This document shows positions 220-34,300 of a stretch of 64,000 nucleotides of DNA, one piece after another (positions within the stretch are counted from its first letter, which is position 1; each line of letters opens with the position of its first letter). Source of the stretch: Mobula hypostoma (Eukaryota); contig NC_086107.1 in NCBI RefSeq assembly GCF_963921235.1, positions 112,966,001 through 113,030,000 on the forward strand, read 5' to 3'. The notes under the pieces were generated by a model. That model was not told the origin of the DNA. It ran no database searches and saw only the letters and a list, made by a program, of their open reading frames with translations. The position numbers and the translations under genes were made by a program.

Positions 220-255
220 AGTCGACGTTTCAGGCCGAGATCCTTCGTCAGGACT
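220..255 (-). ncRNA. Minimal hammerhead motif (weakened stem II) in a Penelope-like repeat at 121-262
   Basis: agtc-CTGACGA-a-GGAT-ctcg-GCCT-GAAA-CG-TC-gact. Confidence 0.55.
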
Positions 256-1016
256 AACTGAAGGATGTAGCTATTACTACTGAGACAACGTATACCCTTG
301 TCCATGTTCCATAGTCTTTCAGTTTCCTCTTTTAGTTCAGCATATTTCTGGTTGCTTTTGCTTGTTTATCCTGTATTAGTATATTAATTTTATTTTTTTA
401 TTGAGATACGAGCGGAATAGGCCCTTCTGGCTCTTCAAGCTGCACTGCCCAGCAATCCCCCGGTTTAATCCTAGCCCAATCTCAGGACGGTTTACAATGA
501 CCAATTAACCTACCAACTGTGGGGAGGAAACTGGAGCACCTGGAGGAAACCCACGGGGAGAGCGTACAAACTCCTTACAGGCAGTGGCGGGAATTGAATC
601 AGGGTCGCCAGTACGGTAAAACGTTGTGCGAACCGCTACGCTACCGTGCCACATTATCTGTACAGTTATTATGGATTGCCCCATCTGTAATAACAGCTCG
701 GTCGTAATATAATTTGTGGGACTCCGACTCTAAAACTGGATCAGGCTTGTACTTACAGTAAGGTATGGGTTCTTTTACGAACATGAGATTCATTTTCTTG
801 CGAGCATTAACAGTAAACACAAAGAAACAAAATGGAATCGATGGAAGACCGCACCCAACAAGACGGACAAACAACCATTGTGCAAAAGATAATACAATGT
901 GTTGCTTTCCTGCGATTGTGTTCCGTGTTGATGTGCTGAGTTATGGGGAGGTCTTTACCTATGAAGGACTGGGCCGTGTTCGTTAGCTTTTGTCGTTCAA
1001 GGGCGTTGCTGTTACG

Positions 1017-1323
1017 ATCCACTACATTTTGTACTGGGTGGGCACAGGAGTACATTCAGCCAGAGACTCATTCCACCGAGATTCAGCACAGAGCATCATA
1101 GGAAGTCATTCCTGCCTGTGGCCATCAAACTTTACAACTCCTCCCTTGGAGGGTCAGACACCCTGAGCCAATAGGCTGGTCCTGGACTTATTTCCTGACA
1201 TAATTTACATATTATTATTTAATTATTTATGGTTTTATTACTATTTATTATTTATGGTGCAACTGTAACGAAAACCAATTTTCCCCGGGATCAATAAAGT
1301 ATGACAATGACTATGACTATGAT
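1017..1323 (+). mobile_element. Young Rex1/Babar-like 3' fragment with (TATGAC)n tail
   Basis: Near-identical to the copies at 4458, 7342 and 59729; AATAAA then TATGAC repeats. Confidence 0.8.
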
Positions 1324-1417
1324 ACCAGGCTGTGATTCAAGTATGCAATGCACTGTGCTAAAGTTCTACACGAGGAAGCATCATAACGTCATTATTAAGG
1401 TGCTCACCAAAATCCCA

Positions 1418-1618
1418 AATCCAGAGTAACGCACACAAAATGCTGGAGGAACTCAGCAGGTCAGGCAGCTTCAATGGAGAGGAGCCAACAGTTGACTTTT
1501 CAGGCCACGACCCTTCATGAGGACTCCTGATCAGCAGGACGCCGCCCGCCCCTGCTGAGTTCCTCCAGCATTCTGTGCGTGCTGCTCTGGATTTCCAGCA
1601 TCTGCAGAATCTCCTGTG
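1418..1618. repeat. Palindromic element made of inverted Penelope-like terminal repeats
   Basis: aaatccagag...tgctggaggaactcagcagg ... cctgctgagttcctccagca...ctctggattt; similar hairpins at 10455-10661 and 20811-21005. Confidence 0.75.
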
Positions 1619-30134: not shown

Positions 30135-30511
30135 CATCTGCGCATGCGTGATTGTTAACGCCTGATTTATATCCTGACGCATGCGCAGTTAATCACCGGG
30201 CTTTGCCGCCCCTCCCACCGAGGCGCATTCAGGGTCACGTGGGGCCTCAATATCGCGCATGAGCAGTGTAATCACGGGGGTTTCTACACGACCGGGGCGC
30301 AATTAGGGTCACGTGGGATCCACAATGTGGCGCATGCGCAGAGTTAATCACGGGGGTTTCTACACGACCGGGACGCAATTAGGGTCACGTGGGAGCCTAA
30401 ATGTGGCGCATGCGCATACAAGGGTTAATGCCGACGACGGCGGCCTAGTCCCACAGAGCGGCGGTCGGGCAGGTTCTCTGCCGGGTGTGGTGTGTTTAAA
30501 ACAGTCGCACG
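30135..30511 (+). promoter_or_regulatory. POLR2L CpG-rich promoter with repeated NRF1-like (GCGCATGCGC) and E-box (GTCACGTG) motifs
   Basis: GTCACGTG at 30234, 30308 and 30384; GCGCATGCG-type motifs near 30140, 30178, 30256, 30330 and 30406; high CpG density directly upstream of the ATG. Confidence 0.85.
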
Positions 30512-30606
30512 ATGATCATTCCGGTGCGGTGTTTCACTTGCGGCAAAGTTGTCGGCAACAAATGGGAGGCCTATCTGGGCCTATTACAGGCTGAATATAC
30601 TGAGGG
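30512..30606 (+). CDS. POLR2L: RNA polymerase I/II/III shared subunit RPB10, coding exon 1
   Basis: ATG at 30512 reads [32 protein letters not shown] (RPB10 CxxC motif); GG|GTGAGT donor at 30607. Missed by the ORF track because it is spliced. Confidence 0.98.
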
Positions 30607-31301
30607 GTGAGTATCGTAGGTGCGGGTGTGGGCCCGAGGCGCCGACTCTCTGCTGTGGGGCTGCGGCTGCGGGCTAGGTGTGTAATTCTCCAGCACCCAG
30701 TGGAGCGCGGGGCAGACAGGAGCACAGATCGAATGTTTCTGCTGCCGGGGTCCAGCGTGACTGCATACCCCTGAGACAATTATACCCAAAAATAGTGACA
30801 ATGTGCTCTCGCCGCGACTGCATAAACTAAAGTCAGGCTGATAAATCTAGGGGCAACTAGATGGAACTAGTTGGGCTAACTAACTGAGTACTACTGACAC
30901 GGCCTGTTGCTGACGAAATGTTTTCATCTTTGCTGCCAATTTCTACCTCGCTTTCACTCTCACCTGGTCCTTTGCCTCCTCCCAGGCAGCTTCATTGAAG
31001 GTGGAAATAAGACTTTGTTAATCAATAATTGAGTCTTTGAGTATCTTGAAGGTGGAGATACCTTTGTACCACATATGGAAGAATGAATTTTAGATTACTA
31101 TCATTGTGAACTGAAAAGTAGGTAGATTGTGAGGGAGTATAGGCTACGTATATCCCCATTTAAGTGGAAATCCACGTGGTCACATGAATAACATATAAAC
31201 TCCTTACACGTGGTGCTCGAATTGAACTCTGAACTGCAGAATGCCCTGAGCTGTTAGAGGATCGCCCTAACTGCTACACTACCCGGCTTGTCATTGGCAT
31301 A

Positions 31302-34300
31302 ATCATAGAAAAGTACAGCACAGAAACAGGCCCTTCAGCCCACCTTGTCTGTGCTGAATCATTTAAACTTCCTTCTCCCATAGACCTGCACTCAGACTTC
31401 AGCCCTCTATACTCCTGCCATCCATGTACCCATCCAAACTTCTTGTAAACATTGAAACTGCATCCATGACTTGTGCTGGCAGCTCATTCCACACACTCAC
31501 CACCCTCTGAGTGAAGTTGTTCCCCCTCGTGTTCCCCTTAAACATTTCACCTTTTGCCCTTAACCCCTGACATCTAGTTGTAGTCTCTCACAACCTCAGT
31601 GGAAAAAGCGTGCTTGCATTTACCCTATCTATATCTGTCATAATTTTGTATACCTCTATCAAATCTCCCCTCTATCTTCTACATTCTGGGGAATAAAGTT
31701 CTAATCTATTCAATTTTGCCTTATAACTCAGGTCCTCCAGGCCCAGCAACATCCTTGTAAACTTTCTCTGTACTCTTTCAATCTTGTTTGCATCTTTCCT
31801 GTAGGTAGGTAACCAGAACTGCACACAGAACTTCAAAATTTGGCCTCACCAGCATGTACAACTTCAGCATAACCTCCCAACTCCTGCATTCAGTACTTTG
31901 ATCTGTGAAGGTTAATCTGCCAAAAGCTCTTTATGACCCAATCTGCCTGTGACCCACTTCCAAGGAATTATGGATCTGTTTTTCCAGATTGTTCTGCCAA
32001 ACTCCTTATTGCCCAACTGTTCACTGTGTAAATCCTACCCTGGTTTGTCCTCCCAAAGTGCAACATCTCACTTTGTGTCCATTAAGTTTCATCTGCCATT
32101 TTTCAGCCCATTTTTCCTGCTGCAAGCCATGATGGGTTTCCCCCCCTCCCCCTTTTCCTTCTCCCTGGGCCTCCTGTCCCATGATCCTCTTGTATCCCTT
32201 TTGCTAATCACCTGTCCAGCTCTTGACTCCATCCCTCCCCCTCCTGTCTTCTATCAATTTGGATCTCCCCCTCCCCCTCCCACTTTCAAATCTCTTACCA
32301 GCTCTTCCTTCAGTTAGTCCTGACGAAAGGTCTCGGCCTGAAACGTCGACTGTACCCCTTGCTAGAGATGCTGCGTTCACCAGCAACTTTTATGTGTGTT
32401 GCTTGAATTTCCAGCATCGGCAGAATTCCTCGTGTTCTCCTTCACCTTGTCTGCTAGAGCAACCTCATCCCTTTTAGGCCTCTTGATTTTTTTTTTCCTT
32501 AGGTATTTACATACATTTCTTGTACTCCAAGTACCTCATTTGTTCCTGCCTGCCTATACCTGCTGTGAACCTTTTTTTAAACCCTCTATCTCTGGAAAAT
32601 CAAGGTTCCCTAGACCTCTTATCCTTGCTTTTTATTCTGACAGGCACATACACTTTGTTCTCTCAAAATTCCACTTCTGAAGGGCCTCCCACTTTCCAAG
32701 TACACCTTTGTCAGAAAACAGCCTGTCCCAATCCATACTTGCCAGATCCTTTCTGAAACCACCGAAATTGGCCTTTCTCCAATTAGAATTTCAACCTGCG
32801 GACCAGACTTACCTTTTTCTATATTTATCTTGAAACTAATGGCATTATGATCATTAGATGCAGTGTTTCCCTACATAAACTTGTCACCTGCCCTGTCTCA
32901 TTCCCTAATAGATCAAGTATCGTACACTTCTATGTACTGATTGAGGAAACTTTGCTGAACACATCTAGTCCTTTTACAGTGTGGGAGTCCCAGTCTATTA
33001 ATATGTGGAAAGTTAAAATCACCTACTACCACAGCCTTGTGTTTCATTGAACAGTCTGTGATCTCTGCAAATTTGTTCCTCTAAATTCTGCAGACTGTTG
33101 GGTGGTCTATGATATAGCCCCATTAAAGTGCTCGTACCTTTCCTATTCCACAGTTCCACCTGGAAAGCCTCACTAGATGAGTTTTTCAGTTTGTCCTGAC
33201 TGAGAACTGCTGTGACATTTTCCCTGACTTGTAATGCCACCCCTCTTCCCTTAATCCCCACTGCTCTATCATGTCTAAATCAATGGAACCCTGGAATATT
33301 GAACTGCCAGCCCTGGCCCCCCTCCAACCAAATCTCAGTAATGGCTACAATATCATAATTCCATGTGTTGATCCATGCCCTGGAGCTCATCTGCCTTTCC
33401 GACAATACACTTTGTATTGAGATACGTATACACAACTCAAAACATTAGTCCCACCACACTTAACCTTTTGATTGTTGACTCTGTCTGAGGCCTTAACATC
33501 TGTGTCCACAATCTCTCCACTATATGTTCCAGCACTCTGGTTTAAACTCCCTACAACTGTAGTTTAAACCCCATCGTAAAGTACTAGCAAACCTTCCCGC
33601 TAGGATATTAGTCCCCCTCCAGTTTAGATGCAACTTGTCTCTTCTGTACAGAAAGAAAGCACAATAACCCAAAAATCTGAAGCTCTCCCTCCAACACCAA
33701 CTCCTTAAATTATATGATCTTCCTGTTTCTGGCCTCACTAGCATGTGGCATGGGTAGCAATCCTGAGATCACAACCCTGGAGGTCCTGCCCTTTAACTTA
33801 GCATCTAACTCCCTGAACTCGCTTTGCAGAACCTCACCCCGCTTCCTACCCATGTCATTGGTGCCTATTTGGACCATGGCCTCTGGCTGCTCACCTTCCC
33901 AAATAAGAATGCTGGTCTCAATCTGAGATGTCGTGGACCCTGGGACCTGGGAAGAAACGCACCATCTGGAATCCTGTTCTCGTCCACAGAACCTCCTTTC
34001 TGTTTCCTTAACTAACGAATCTCCTGTTACCACAGCTCACCCTGAGCCACAGAGCCAGACTCAGTGCCAGTAACCTGACCACTGTGACTTTCCTCTGTTT
34101 GGTCATCCCTACACAATAGTATCCGAAGTGGTATTTTGTTGTTGAGGGGGATGGTCACAGGGGTACTCTGCACTGGCAGTTTAACCCCTTTCAGCCTCCT
34201 GACTCTCACAGTTTCTTTTGTCCTGTATCTTGGGTGTACTGCCTCTAAAATAGTCTGTCTTTCATCCCTTCAGCTTCCAGAATGAAGGTTCATCCAGCTC

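What the first reader, a model, noticed from the sequence alone, without database searches (positions are those of the whole stretch)
220..32351. Dispersed family of minimal hammerhead ribozymes on Penelope-like terminal repeats
Seen: at least 8 copies of agtc-CTGAYGA-a-stemII(GGGT ctcg GCCC)-GAAA-CG-TH-gact on both strands. Intact copies are at 6357, 29230 and 32316; variants are at 220, 20908, 26022, 26208 and 10565. Several sit just downstream of a GIY-YIG-like C-terminus (RLEEQHLIFRLGSLQP.GMN). Established: Penelope-like retroelements carry minimal type I hammerheads whose palindromic stem III (here ACGU) is completed by dimerisation. Inference: this genome holds a very high-copy self-cleaving RNA family with an extra A after the CUGANGA box.
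Basis: partly seen in the sequence, partly recalled or inferred. Interest (0 to 1): 0.8.

Follow-up and report, generated by a model that had tools for sequence, protein, structure and literature searches.

The report
Hammerhead ribozymes on Penelope-like retroelements
The repeated motif is the small self-cutting "hammerhead" RNA that Penelope-like jumping genes carry near their ends; the kind is already described, but in this ray-like fish genome it has multiplied to an unusually large number of copies.

Summary
All eight listed copies are at the stated places (8 hits, 0 expected by chance), and an ungapped scan finds 12 copies between 219 and 32352. Five of the 12 keep every core nucleotide. 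Four pass a strict minimal-hammerhead descriptor, against 0 hits in 50 shuffles.

In the window's own 3.48-Gb genome the motif lies 302 nt after the stop codon of an open frame of about 1,000 aa with RT and GIY-YIG matches. The element also shows partial head-to-tail terminal repeats, inverted 5'-truncated partner copies and an optional tail of about 36 nt. These are the published hallmarks of Penelope-like elements.

The "extra A", the short helix I and the palindromic ACGU are already published features (PMC4209133).

Two things are new here:
- **Scale:** at least 191,656 copies.
- **Dominant variant:** the youngest and most abundant subfamily has G10.1·U11.1 instead of G-C (57,647 against 15,862 copies).

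Self-cleavage was not tested, and three indirect indicators do not favour efficient cutting. All window copies are dead 3' fragments. Verdict: a new member of a known kind.

The parts
122..265 (-). Young 3'-terminal fragment of the Penelope-like element, carrying the optional tail. Its hammerhead is at 219-255: core intact, helix II weakened (GGAU/GCCU), U at 11.1.
   Evidence: 96.5% identical to positions 3359-3502 of a natural 3.5-kb copy (L044)..
1417..1619 (-). Old foldback copy (subfamily b): inverted tail arm plus a direct hammerhead and tail. Hammerhead at 1489-1525 is decayed (G5 changed).
6294..6786 (-). 5'-truncated copy holding the end of the endonuclease coding region, the 3' UTR, an intact hammerhead (6356-6392, G10.1-C11.1) and a tail ending at the short site.
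   Evidence: (82% identical to unit positions 2987-3468).
7243..7349 (-). Decayed hammerhead (7307-7343, G8 changed) plus tail. It may be the 3' end of the copy at 8304-8483, separated from it by an inserted LINE fragment.
   Evidence: The link to 8304-8483 is inference.
8304..8483 (-). Fragment encoding the C-terminus of the GIY-YIG endonuclease (…HFNSTSHSHSD…EEQHLIFRLGSLQPNGMN…stop).
   Evidence: (72% identical to ray protein P0001).
10452..10661 (+). Old foldback copy (subfamily b). Hammerhead at 10565-10601 is inactive by sequence (G12 to A, helix I broken).
19953..20478 (-). Old 5'-truncated copy: endonuclease C-terminus (20405-20478), 3' UTR, decayed hammerhead (20015-20051, A6 to G) and tail.
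20822..21010 (+). Old foldback copy (subfamily b). Hammerhead at 20908-20944 has an intact core but AUGU in place of ACGU. As RNA the whole unit folds into one long hairpin.
   Evidence: (MFE -98.5 kcal/mol, z = -7.9, 0 of 200 shuffles as good).
24726..24762 (-). Very decayed hammerhead relic (11 of 37 positions differ; G8 changed).
   Evidence: only.
25933..26100 (-). 3' fragment. Hammerhead at 26021-26057 is inactive by sequence (A13 to U, A·C at 10.1/11.1).
   Evidence: (90% identical to unit positions 3326-3494).
26128..26243 (-). Composite: a short inverted tail piece (26128-26159, + strand) next to a hammerhead-plus-tail fragment. Hammerhead at 26207-26243 has A6 to G and has lost the 5' strand of helix I.
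29230..29366 (+). Mini-copy that starts exactly at the 5' strand of helix I and ends with the optional tail. Hammerhead at 29230-29266 is intact apart from GUU in place of GUC.
   Evidence: (92.7% identical to unit positions 3369-3505).
32133..32427 (+). 3' UTR, hammerhead and tail. Hammerhead at 32316-32352 is intact, with A10.1-U11.1.
   Evidence: (86% identical to unit positions 3187-3492).

Best explanation
The motif is the minimal type I hammerhead ribozyme of a canonical, endonuclease-bearing Penelope-like retroelement (PLE).

[quoted passage not shown] After the stop codon come a C/T-rich 3' UTR of about 300 nt, the 37-nt hammerhead, and about 100 nt of tail sequence containing a stem-loop. 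Insertions end at either of two sites about 36 nt apart.

The element inserts by target-primed reverse transcription that starts inside this tail. As a result:
- most copies are 5'-truncated 3' ends, like all 12 copies in the window;
- many carry a partial head-to-tail upstream copy (the pseudo-LTR, which brings a second hammerhead in front of the open frame);
- many carry an inverted 5'-truncated partner.

**How the ribozyme acts (inferred from the published family, not shown here).** Helix III is reduced to the palindrome ACGU, so the RNA cannot cut as a monomer. Two copies, in one longer-than-unit transcript or on two transcripts, pair through ACGU into a double hammerhead. Cutting occurs after GUC, probably helped by the element's own protein, and trims longer-than-unit or read-through transcripts.

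**State of the window copies.** They are dead relics. Seven of 12 have lost an invariant core base, mostly by CpG decay.
For: **The motif is real.**: 8 hits against 0 expected; 4 strict hits against 0 in 50 shuffles; 12 copies.

**Genome-wide counts** (reversed-pattern control 0 in every case):
- 75,357 hits to a 32-mer at up to 1 mismatch;
- 191,656 hits to the 26-mer at up to 3 mismatches;
- 117,695 hits to a 33-mer from the tail.

**The protein.**
- The window fragment 8307-8528(-) matches ray proteins P0001 (E = 3.6e-21, 72% identical) and P0002.
- P0001 shows YIDDC, a Cys-rich linker and GVIY…LYIGET…EH….
- Pfam on P0001: GIY-YIG E = 4.6e-4. Pfam on a natural 1,022-aa frame: RVT_1 E = 1.1e-4 and GIY-YIG E = 4.9e-4.
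- In 4 of 4 long copies the hammerhead starts 302 nt after the stop.

**PLE hallmarks as listed in PMC8557442:**
- partial tandem pseudo-LTR in 23 of 30 loci anchored on the frame start;
- a direct hammerhead in that repeat in 18 of 30;
- an inverted upstream copy in 10 of 30;
- of 13 neighbouring hammerhead pairs closer than 4 kb, 12 are head-to-head, 1 tail-to-tail and 0 on the same strand (binomial P = 6e-7, on the list);
- two alternative 3' ends: 12 of 30 with the extension of about 36 nt, 10 of 30 at the short site, 8 other.

**Match to the published min-HHR** (PMC4209133): short helix I, an unpaired nucleotide between A9 and 10.1, palindromic 15.2-16.2.

**The hammerhead is the best-kept block.**
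- In the alignment of the 8 window copies, 22 of the 35 invariant columns lie in the 37-nt hammerhead, 12 in the roughly 100-nt tail and 1 upstream.
- Among 32 copies chosen by the tail, mismatch to a young copy is 3.9% in the hammerhead (2.6% outside CpG). It is 7.9% in the 49 nt before it and 8.5% in the 14 nt after it.
- Contigs from runs of other coded organisms match through the hammerhead and run on unlike exactly at its two edges, positions 1365 and 1399-1401 of L048 (table 7).
Against: **No catalytic test was possible.** Every piece of indirect evidence I could compute is neutral or unfavourable to efficient cutting.

1. *Rfam.* No hammerhead hit, at gathering scores or at E up to 10. 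This may only reflect the missing helix III, which I did not check against the Rfam models.

2. *Predicted folding.* The 40-nt RNA prefers a rod in which GACG of the core pairs with CGUC at the cut site. Predicted energies:
   - the rod: -13.5 kcal/mol;
   - the hammerhead-like monomer: -8.7 kcal/mol;
   - the double hammerhead: -16.3 kcal/mol;
   - the best dimer: -35.3 kcal/mol.

3. *The dominant variant.* The most abundant subfamily, which includes all 4 long-frame copies and 17 of the 18 pseudo-LTR hammerheads (the other, L060, has a changed neighbouring base), has G10.1·U11.1 rather than the usual G-C (57,647 against 15,862). The restoring A-U combination is not enriched: 676 A-U against 401 A·C, so G to A is 1.2% on the U background and 2.5% on the C background.

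4. *No trace of cutting in insertion ends.* Among 60 copies chosen by the tail, only 2 have their 5' boundary at the cleavage site (L123, L104), which is no more than background. 32 run through the hammerhead uncut.

5. *No tandem pairs.* Same-strand pairs that could dimerise within one transcript were 0 of 13 close pairs.

6. *Weak domain scores.* Both Pfam matches are below the curated cut-offs.

Published work on the anole element PAc likewise found that cleavage needs the protein, that it is not needed for insertion in vitro, and that no reads end at the cut site (PMC11167929, passages).
Confidence: 0.85

Rival explanations
1. The conserved 37-nt block is kept mainly as a structural signal of the element's 3' module, for example as a hairpin that helps the reverse transcriptase or ribonucleoprotein find or delimit its template. 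On this view hammerhead catalysis is weak or vestigial in this lineage.
For: - The predicted ground state is a 13-bp rod that buries both core and cut site.
- The most successful subfamily has a wobble at 10.1/11.1 with no compensatory enrichment.
- 5' boundaries are not enriched at the cut site: 2 of 60.
- 5' boundaries do cluster at the 5' edge of the block: 6 of 60 within positions 47-50 of the 105-nt frame. Three further cases are window copy 29230 and L052 and L056.
- In the anole element, hammerhead mutants do not affect insertion in vitro (PMC11167929).
Against: - Every invariant hammerhead position is kept in all three subfamilies, while the flanks change. A mere hairpin would not need CUGAYGA…GAAA.
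- Nearest-neighbour folding ignores the tertiary contacts of the hammerhead core.
- G·U at 10.1/11.1 keeps G10.1, and its effect on rate is unknown to me. The library search gave nothing quantitative.
- PLE hammerheads of fungi, and the protein-assisted anole one, do cleave (PMC4209133, PMC11167929).
Confidence: 0.25
2. The foldback copies of about 200 nt (subfamily b: 1417-1619, 10452-10661, 20822-21010) are a separate non-autonomous element. It would be a PLE-derived hairpin with the hammerhead at its tip, copied as a unit by PLE enzymes, akin to the monomers of animal non-LTR retrozymes.
For: - 40 of 40 scored genome matches to 20815-21015 are significant, and most span nearly the whole 201 nt at 73-84% identity. 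There were 3,529 first-look candidates.
- 15 aligned copies share both ends.
- The unit folds into one hairpin with z = -7.9.
Against: - The spacer between the inverted arm and the hammerhead differs in length (about 3-33 nt) and content among the 15 copies. The inverted arm stops at different points around the cut site. This fits independent 'inverted 5'-truncated copy plus direct copy' insertions, a known PLE outcome (PMC8557442), better than descent from one master.
- The query itself selected for this architecture.
- The young subfamily shows the same structures with clearly variable junctions.
- Tandem arrays, which define retrozymes, were not seen: 0 same-strand pairs of 13.
Confidence: 0.25
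3. The hammerhead-like pattern is a chance resemblance within an ordinary repeat.
For: No Rfam hit.
Against: - All 11 fixed core positions, both helices, the unpaired A and the palindrome are present together.
- The strict descriptor gives 0 hits in 50 shuffles.
- The block sits where PLE hammerheads are reported to sit (PMC4209133).
Confidence: 0.01

Closest known systems
Minimal hammerheads (min-HHR) in the pseudo-LTRs of metazoan Penelope-like elements, including the fish Xena, Poseidon and Neptune elements (Cervera and De la Pena 2014, PMC4209133; main text parts 1-2 read)
   Same: - Type I layout with a short helix I (4-5 bp).
- One unpaired nucleotide between A9 and 10.1.
- Helix III reduced to a palindrome (15.2-16.2), so that two copies are needed.
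- Located in the terminal repeat.
- Most genomic copies are solitary, on truncated elements.
- Pairs on opposite strands are reported.
   Different: - Helix II here is 4 bp, against 7-8 bp in the schistosome families described there.
- The largest counts reported there are about 4,000 (coelacanth) and 9,000 (Xenopus). Here there are at least 191,656.
- That paper stresses extreme sequence variety within a genome. Here one sequence dominates.
- The dominant form has G10.1·U11.1, whereas that paper lists G10.1-C11.1 as highly conserved.
PAc, the Poseidon element of the green anole (Frangieh et al. 2024, PMC11167929; passages read)
   Same: - Reverse transcription starts inside the RNA at two nearby sites in a stem-loop, which explains the optional tail of 30-40 bp.
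- The hammerhead lies roughly 90-100 nt upstream of those sites.
- The insertions of this element end at two sites about 36 nt apart, about 100 and 135 nt after the cut site.
   Different: - In PAc the open frame begins inside the hammerhead. Here the hammerhead lies about 135 nt before the unit start and about 170 nt before the first Met of the frame.
- PAc cleavage and insertion were measured; nothing was measured here.
General structure of PLE insertions (Craig et al. 2021, PMC8557442; passages read)
   Same: Frequent 5' truncation, partial tandems forming pseudo-LTRs, an inverted 5'-truncated copy at the 5' end, a tail of 30-40 bp, and the hammerhead within the pseudo-LTR. All were seen here.
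   Different: Nothing structural. The Cys-rich linker before the endonuclease suggests the Neptune-type clade, but I built no tree.
Animal non-LTR retrozymes (Cervera and De la Pena 2020, PMC7229834, search listing only; Li et al. 2026 preprint 10.64898/2026.07.22.740005, abstract and Results part 1 read)
   Same: Short non-coding units with a type I hammerhead, related to PLE pseudo-LTRs. That preprint sampled one cartilaginous fish.
   Different: Retrozymes are defined by tandem arrays that give circular RNAs. The copies here are dispersed, solitary or head-to-head.
Hammerheads with an extra nucleotide after A9 (De la Pena and Flores 2001, cited in PMC4209133; the plant-viroid example is recalled, not read)
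   Same: One unpaired nucleotide between A9 and G10.1.
   Different: A different host and a full-size hammerhead with a real helix III.

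Membership tests
Hammerhead ribozyme, minimal type I (min-HHR) | Invariant core: C3 U4 G5 A6 N7 G8 A9, G12 A13 A14, A15.1/U16.1, H17 not G | tested here: met
   5 of 12 window copies keep all of these: 219, 6356, 20908, 29230, 32316. 19 of 60 genome copies chosen by the tail fit a strict pattern.
Hammerhead ribozyme, minimal type I (min-HHR) | Helices I and II base-paired around the core | tested here: met
   Helix I AGUC/GACU. Helix II GGGU/GCCC with a CUCG loop. Strict descriptor: 4 hits against 0 in 50 shuffles.
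Hammerhead ribozyme, minimal type I (min-HHR) | Unpaired nucleotide between A9 and 10.1, and a palindromic 15.2-16.2 in place of helix III (PMC4209133) | tested here: met
   An A follows CUGAYGA in all 12 copies. ACGU is present in 6 of 12. The rest differ from it, mostly by CpG-type transitions.
Hammerhead ribozyme, minimal type I (min-HHR) | G10.1-C11.1 base pair | tested here: inconclusive
   Exact 24-mer counts: G-C 15,862; G·U 57,647; A-U 676; A·C 401. The dominant subfamily has a wobble pair.
Hammerhead ribozyme, minimal type I (min-HHR) | Match to a curated hammerhead covariance model | tested here: not met
   No Rfam hammerhead hit at gathering score or at E up to 10. The missing helix III may explain this. 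I did not inspect the Rfam models, so this does not exclude the minimal form.
Hammerhead ribozyme, minimal type I (min-HHR) | Site-specific self-cleavage after H17 | not testable with these tools
   No RNA run on record. Folding does not favour the active dimer. No excess of insertion 5' ends at the site.
Penelope-like element, endonuclease-bearing | Single open frame with a reverse transcriptase followed by a C-terminal GIY-YIG endonuclease | tested here: met
   Frames of 859-1022 aa in 4 of 4 long copies. RVT_1 at 22.5 bits (cut-off 29.6) and GIY-YIG at 20.8 bits (cut-off 22.6), both below cut-off. YIDDC and GVIY…LYIGET are visible in P0001. Met by order and motifs, weak by score.
Penelope-like element, endonuclease-bearing | Partial head-to-tail copies forming pseudo-LTRs | tested here: met
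   In 23 of 30 loci anchored on the frame start, the unit end joins the unit start directly. The upstream piece ranges from 45 to more than 1,498 nt.
Penelope-like element, endonuclease-bearing | Inverted 5'-truncated copy at the 5' end | tested here: met
   10 of 30 loci. 12 of 13 close hammerhead pairs are head-to-head.
Penelope-like element, endonuclease-bearing | Optional tail extension of 30-40 bp | tested here: met
   12 of 30 copies carry an extension of about 36 nt, 10 of 30 end at the short site, 8 other.
Penelope-like element, endonuclease-bearing | Hammerhead inside the pseudo-LTR | tested here: met
   18 of 30 loci have a direct hammerhead 190 nt before the anchor. It lies 302 nt after the stop in 4 of 4 long copies.
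Penelope-like element, endonuclease-bearing | Reverse transcriptase groups with the PLE/telomerase clade in a tree | not tested
   No tree was built.
Non-LTR retrozyme | Tandem arrays of short hammerhead units | tested here: not met
   0 same-strand pairs among 13 close pairs in a list of 100 copies. No tandem pair in the window.

The most novel reading that the evidence does not exclude
In this ray lineage a single Penelope-like family has expanded to roughly 200,000 hammerhead-bearing copies while its master carried a G10.1·U11.1 wobble. Its insertions show no trace of templates cut at the ribozyme site. Instead their 5' ends pile up at the 5' edge of the hammerhead hairpin.

Taken together, this could mean the motif works in this element chiefly as a boundary or recognition hairpin for reverse transcription, or as an RNA start point, with cleavage dispensable for spread. 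That would give a natural large-scale counterpart to the in-vitro finding that hammerhead mutants of the anole element still insert.
Probability: 0.2. Interest if true: 0.55.

Novelty: new member of a known kind. Interest (0 to 1): 0.3.

Why it matters
The role of the hammerhead in Penelope-like elements is still open. Published work shows low activity in vitro, a need for protein in one case, and no need for cleavage in an in-vitro insertion assay.

This genome offers a large natural data set on that question:
- **Many copies of one sequence.** There are tens of thousands of young, nearly identical copies.
- **A clear variant at a conserved pair.** The G·U subfamily is about 3.6 times as abundant as the G-C one.
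- **Readable insertion ends.** Thousands of insertions have 5' ends that can be read as a record of what the RNA template looked like.

A genome-wide census of those ends, plus RNA end-mapping in a ray, could show whether cut RNAs are ever used as templates.

For annotation, the family matters because it accounts for a large number of short, hairpin-prone repeats. In the list examined, 5 of 13 close pairs are head-to-head copies only 32-67 nt apart. Such repeats can confuse assembly and small-RNA analyses.

Tried and rejected
- **Rfam.** Scans of the whole window at gathering scores and at E up to 10 gave no hammerhead hit.
- **Pfam on short fragments.** The three short window fragments encoding the C-terminus gave nothing at E up to 10. 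Identity came from a homology search instead.
- **RNA evidence.** No RNA holder is listed. All 22 runs are contigs of unrecorded kind. The four that I laid cannot show starts, ends or levels of RNA, and table 6 lists no pile-up of ends.
- **Compensatory change in helix II.** I looked for an excess of A10.1-U11.1 and found none. The A-U copy at 32316 is therefore best read as random decay on the U background.
- **Insertions copied from cut RNA.** I looked for 5' ends at the cleavage site and found no enrichment: 2 of 60.
- **Direct pseudo-LTR in four long copies.** None was found within the 3.4-4.2 kb upstream. They appeared only in the larger sample anchored on the frame start.
- **Foldback copies as one family.** I considered that subfamily b descends from a single master. 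The variable junctions argue against this, though not decisively.
- **A splice site as the cause of the 5'-end cluster.** I considered the pyrimidine tract plus CAG just upstream of helix I. This was rejected because the flanks of those copies are unrelated to each other and the boundaries are ragged (positions 47-50).
- **Conservation among copies of one subfamily.** This is uninformative about function. Copies decay neutrally, and the hammerhead holds four CpGs, with 8.6% mismatch at CpG sites against 2.6% elsewhere.
- **Literature.**
  - Lunse, Weinberg and Breaker on dimeric cleavage is not held. I saw it only in a reference list and a review's summary.
  - Searches for PLEs in cartilaginous fishes gave only whale-shark genome papers, which I did not open.
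  - The search for data on the 10.1/11.1 pair gave nothing quantitative.
  - Supplements of the cited papers were not opened. They may hold per-species counts that bear on the copy-number comparison.

Full report
**1. The observation**

None of 100 shuffles gave a match. The exact gapped form occurs 3 times.

An ungapped scan with the full 37-nt motif, taken from window 6356-6392(-), finds 12 copies at up to 11 mismatches. All lie between 219 and 32352, and none lies in the second half of the window.

I wrote a strict structural descriptor: 4-bp helix I, CUGANGA, an optional extra base, a perfect helix II, GAAA, a palindromic spacer, then U and a non-G. It accepts four copies (220, 6357, 29230, 32316) and none in 50 shuffles. 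Copy 20908 keeps the core but has AUGU in place of ACGU.

The other seven copies have lost an invariant base (G5, A6, G8, G12 or A13). Most changes are CpG-type transitions. Rfam reports no hammerhead, even at E up to 10. The missing helix III of this form may be the reason, but I did not check the Rfam models.

**2. Anatomy of the motif**

On the RNA strand the motif reads:
- AGUC (helix I, 5' strand);
- CUGAYGA (C3-A9);
- one unpaired A;
- GGGU-CUCG-GCCC (helix II and its loop);
- GAAA (G12-A14 and A15.1);
- CGU, which completes the palindrome ACGU;
- C17, the cut site;
- GACU (helix I, 3' strand).

This is the published minimal hammerhead of metazoan Penelope-like elements. [quoted passage not shown] The 'extra A' is therefore a known family trait, not a peculiarity of this genome.

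**3. Which element carries it**

*In the window.* The copies fall into two sequence groups (alignments).
- Group a (219, 6356, 26021, 29230, 32316) has variable 5' ends and a common 3' end about 100 nt after the motif.
- Group b (1489, 10565, 20908; 26207 in part) has, upstream of the motif, the reverse complement of its own tail. The unit therefore folds into one long hairpin (-98.5 kcal/mol, z = -7.9).
- The longest such fragment (8307-8528) matches ray proteins at E = 3.6e-21. These proteins show a YIDDC reverse-transcriptase motif, a Cys-rich linker and a GIY-YIG domain.

*In the whole genome.* The window's own assembly is held: 3.48 Gb, with the window at C45:112,966,001-113,030,000. It encodes P0001 at 100% identity. 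A source names that protein as from a devil ray, so this is very probably a mobulid ray genome.
- Four copies with long open frames (859-1022 aa) all end in …GMNIDFSNFR-stop.
- All four have the hammerhead 302 nt further on, followed by the tail.
- Pfam gives RVT_1 and GIY-YIG on the 1,022-aa frame, both slightly below the curated cut-offs.

**4. Terminal repeats and the other hallmarks**

The four long copies showed no upstream direct repeat. One of them began with the last 22 nt or so of the tail. I therefore sampled 30 loci by the first 261 nt of the unit, a choice that is blind to the ribozyme.
- In 23 of 30, the end of a unit is joined directly to the start of the next. The upstream piece ranges from 45 to more than 1,498 nt, which is a pseudo-LTR of variable length.
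- 18 of 30 carry a direct hammerhead exactly 190 nt before the anchor.
- 10 of 30 have a further inverted piece.

In a list of 100 exact hammerheads, 13 neighbouring pairs lie closer than 4 kb. Twelve are head-to-head, one is tail-to-tail and none is on the same strand (P = 6e-7, on the list).

Insertions end at two alternative sites. Of 30 copies chosen by the hammerhead, 12 carry an extension of about 36 nt, 10 end at the short site and 8 end elsewhere.

These are the features listed for Penelope-like elements: 5' truncation, partial tandems, an inverted 5' copy, a tail of 30-40 bp, and the hammerhead in the pseudo-LTR (PMC8557442). The two ends fit the two internal start sites of reverse transcription shown for the anole element (PMC11167929).

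Mapped against a natural 3.5-kb copy, every window copy is a 3' fragment. None reaches the reverse-transcriptase region.

**5. Scale and variants**

| Pattern | Mismatches allowed | Matches |
|---|---|---|
| 32-mer hammerhead | up to 1 | 75,357 |
| 26-mer hammerhead | up to 3 | 191,656 |
| 33-mer from the tail | up to 1 | 117,695 |

The reversed-pattern control gave 0 in every case, and the tool states that such counts are lower bounds. The largest counts in the 2014 paper are about 4,000 and 9,000.

Exact counts for the pair at the base of helix II:

| Pair at 10.1/11.1 | Count |
|---|---|
| G-C | 15,862 |
| G·U | 57,647 |
| A-U | 676 |
| A·C | 401 |

The G·U form is inherited, not the result of decay in each copy.
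- All 4 long-frame copies have it, as do 17 of the 18 pseudo-LTR hammerheads; the other, L060, has a changed neighbouring base.
- The neighbouring CpG at N7 is still C in most of the listed copies.

A-U is not enriched over what independent mutation would give. There is thus no sign of compensatory selection.

**6. Is the block constrained?**

- In the alignment of the 8 window copies, which span both groups, 22 of 35 invariant columns fall in the 37-nt hammerhead. Twelve fall in the roughly 100-nt tail and 1 falls upstream.
- In 32 tail-chosen copies that run through the motif, mismatch to a young copy is 3.9% in the hammerhead. It is 7.9% before it and 8.5% after it. The only frequent non-CpG difference inside is the C/U at 11.1.
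- Contigs from runs of four other coded organisms match through the hammerhead and diverge at its two edges. The sequence after the edge reads like the group-b tail (table 7). The kind of those runs is unrecorded, so this is weak support.

Between subfamilies the hammerhead is better kept than its flanks.

**7. Does it cut?**

This was not testable here, and the indirect evidence is unfavourable or neutral.
- *Folding.* Prediction prefers a rod in which GACG (G5-G8) pairs with CGUC (15.2-17). The rod scores -13.5 kcal/mol against -8.7 for the hammerhead-like monomer. The double hammerhead scores -16.3 against -35.3 for the best dimer.
- *Insertion ends.* In 60 copies chosen by the tail, 32 run through the motif. 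Only 2 have their 5' boundary at the cut site, while 6 have it within 4 nt of the 5' edge of helix I.
- *RNA data.* No RNA run is on record.

The literature agrees that these ribozymes are weak. It reports low activity even as dimers (PMC4209133), and for the anole element protein-assisted cleavage that is not needed for insertion in vitro (PMC11167929).

**8. Verdict**

The thing is a member of a described kind. What is worth keeping is:
- the extreme copy number in a cartilaginous fish;
- the dominance of a single sequence with a wobble at a normally conserved pair;
- the possibility of using the very large number of insertion ends as a natural record of whether cut RNA ever serves as a template.

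The searches I ran found no paper describing this family in rays. One 2026 preprint sampled a single cartilaginous fish for retrozymes and PLEs.

Noticed in passing
G000 loci L099, L113, L134, L140, L145, L148; window 29230; L052, L056: The 5' boundaries of insertions cluster at the 5' edge of hammerhead helix I. Six of 60 tail-chosen copies fall within a 4-nt bin, against about 1 expected from the other boundaries in the frame. Three further cases were seen elsewhere. This could be an RNA start, a stop of the reverse transcriptase, or chance in a small sample.
   Followed up: partly
L048:1340-1368 and the same place in most group-a copies; window 6393-6420 (-): A pyrimidine tract ending in CAG, with a branch-point-like CTCAC, lies 2 nt before helix I. 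For Drosophila virilis Penelope, the 2014 paper reports that the intron ends at the 5' end of helix I. Whether this ray element has an intron there is untested.
   Followed up: no
window 6355-6394 (-): Core bases GACG (G5-G8) are complementary to CGUC (15.2-17), so the monomer is predicted to fold into a closed rod that hides both core and cut site. An earlier scan note on another genome described a comparable competing helix.
   Followed up: partly
window 38600-42750 and 43100-46250 (-): Two near-identical copies of a LINE lie side by side, with endonuclease, reverse transcriptase and a CR1-like C-terminus. One has a 794-aa open frame. The other is split into several frames.
   Followed up: no
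window 22938-23006 (+): A tRNA-like sequence scores below the Rfam threshold (24.8 bits against 29). It may be the head of a tRNA-derived SINE.
   Followed up: no
window 19176-19889: A tandem array of units of about 48 nt (peptide repeat …FREGAKEIYQGAAW… on the minus strand) appears to be derived from the 3' part of a LINE frame. It sits next to the old Penelope-like copy at 19953-20478.
   Followed up: no
window 9480-10120: A long, imperfect CA/CT-rich simple repeat lies immediately upstream of the foldback copy at 10452-10661. PLEs are reported to favour microsatellites as targets (PMC8557442, abstract passage).
   Followed up: no
L044 (oriented copy) about 4919-5126; L060 upstream region: Short internal tandem duplications occur within the open frame of some long copies.
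   Followed up: no
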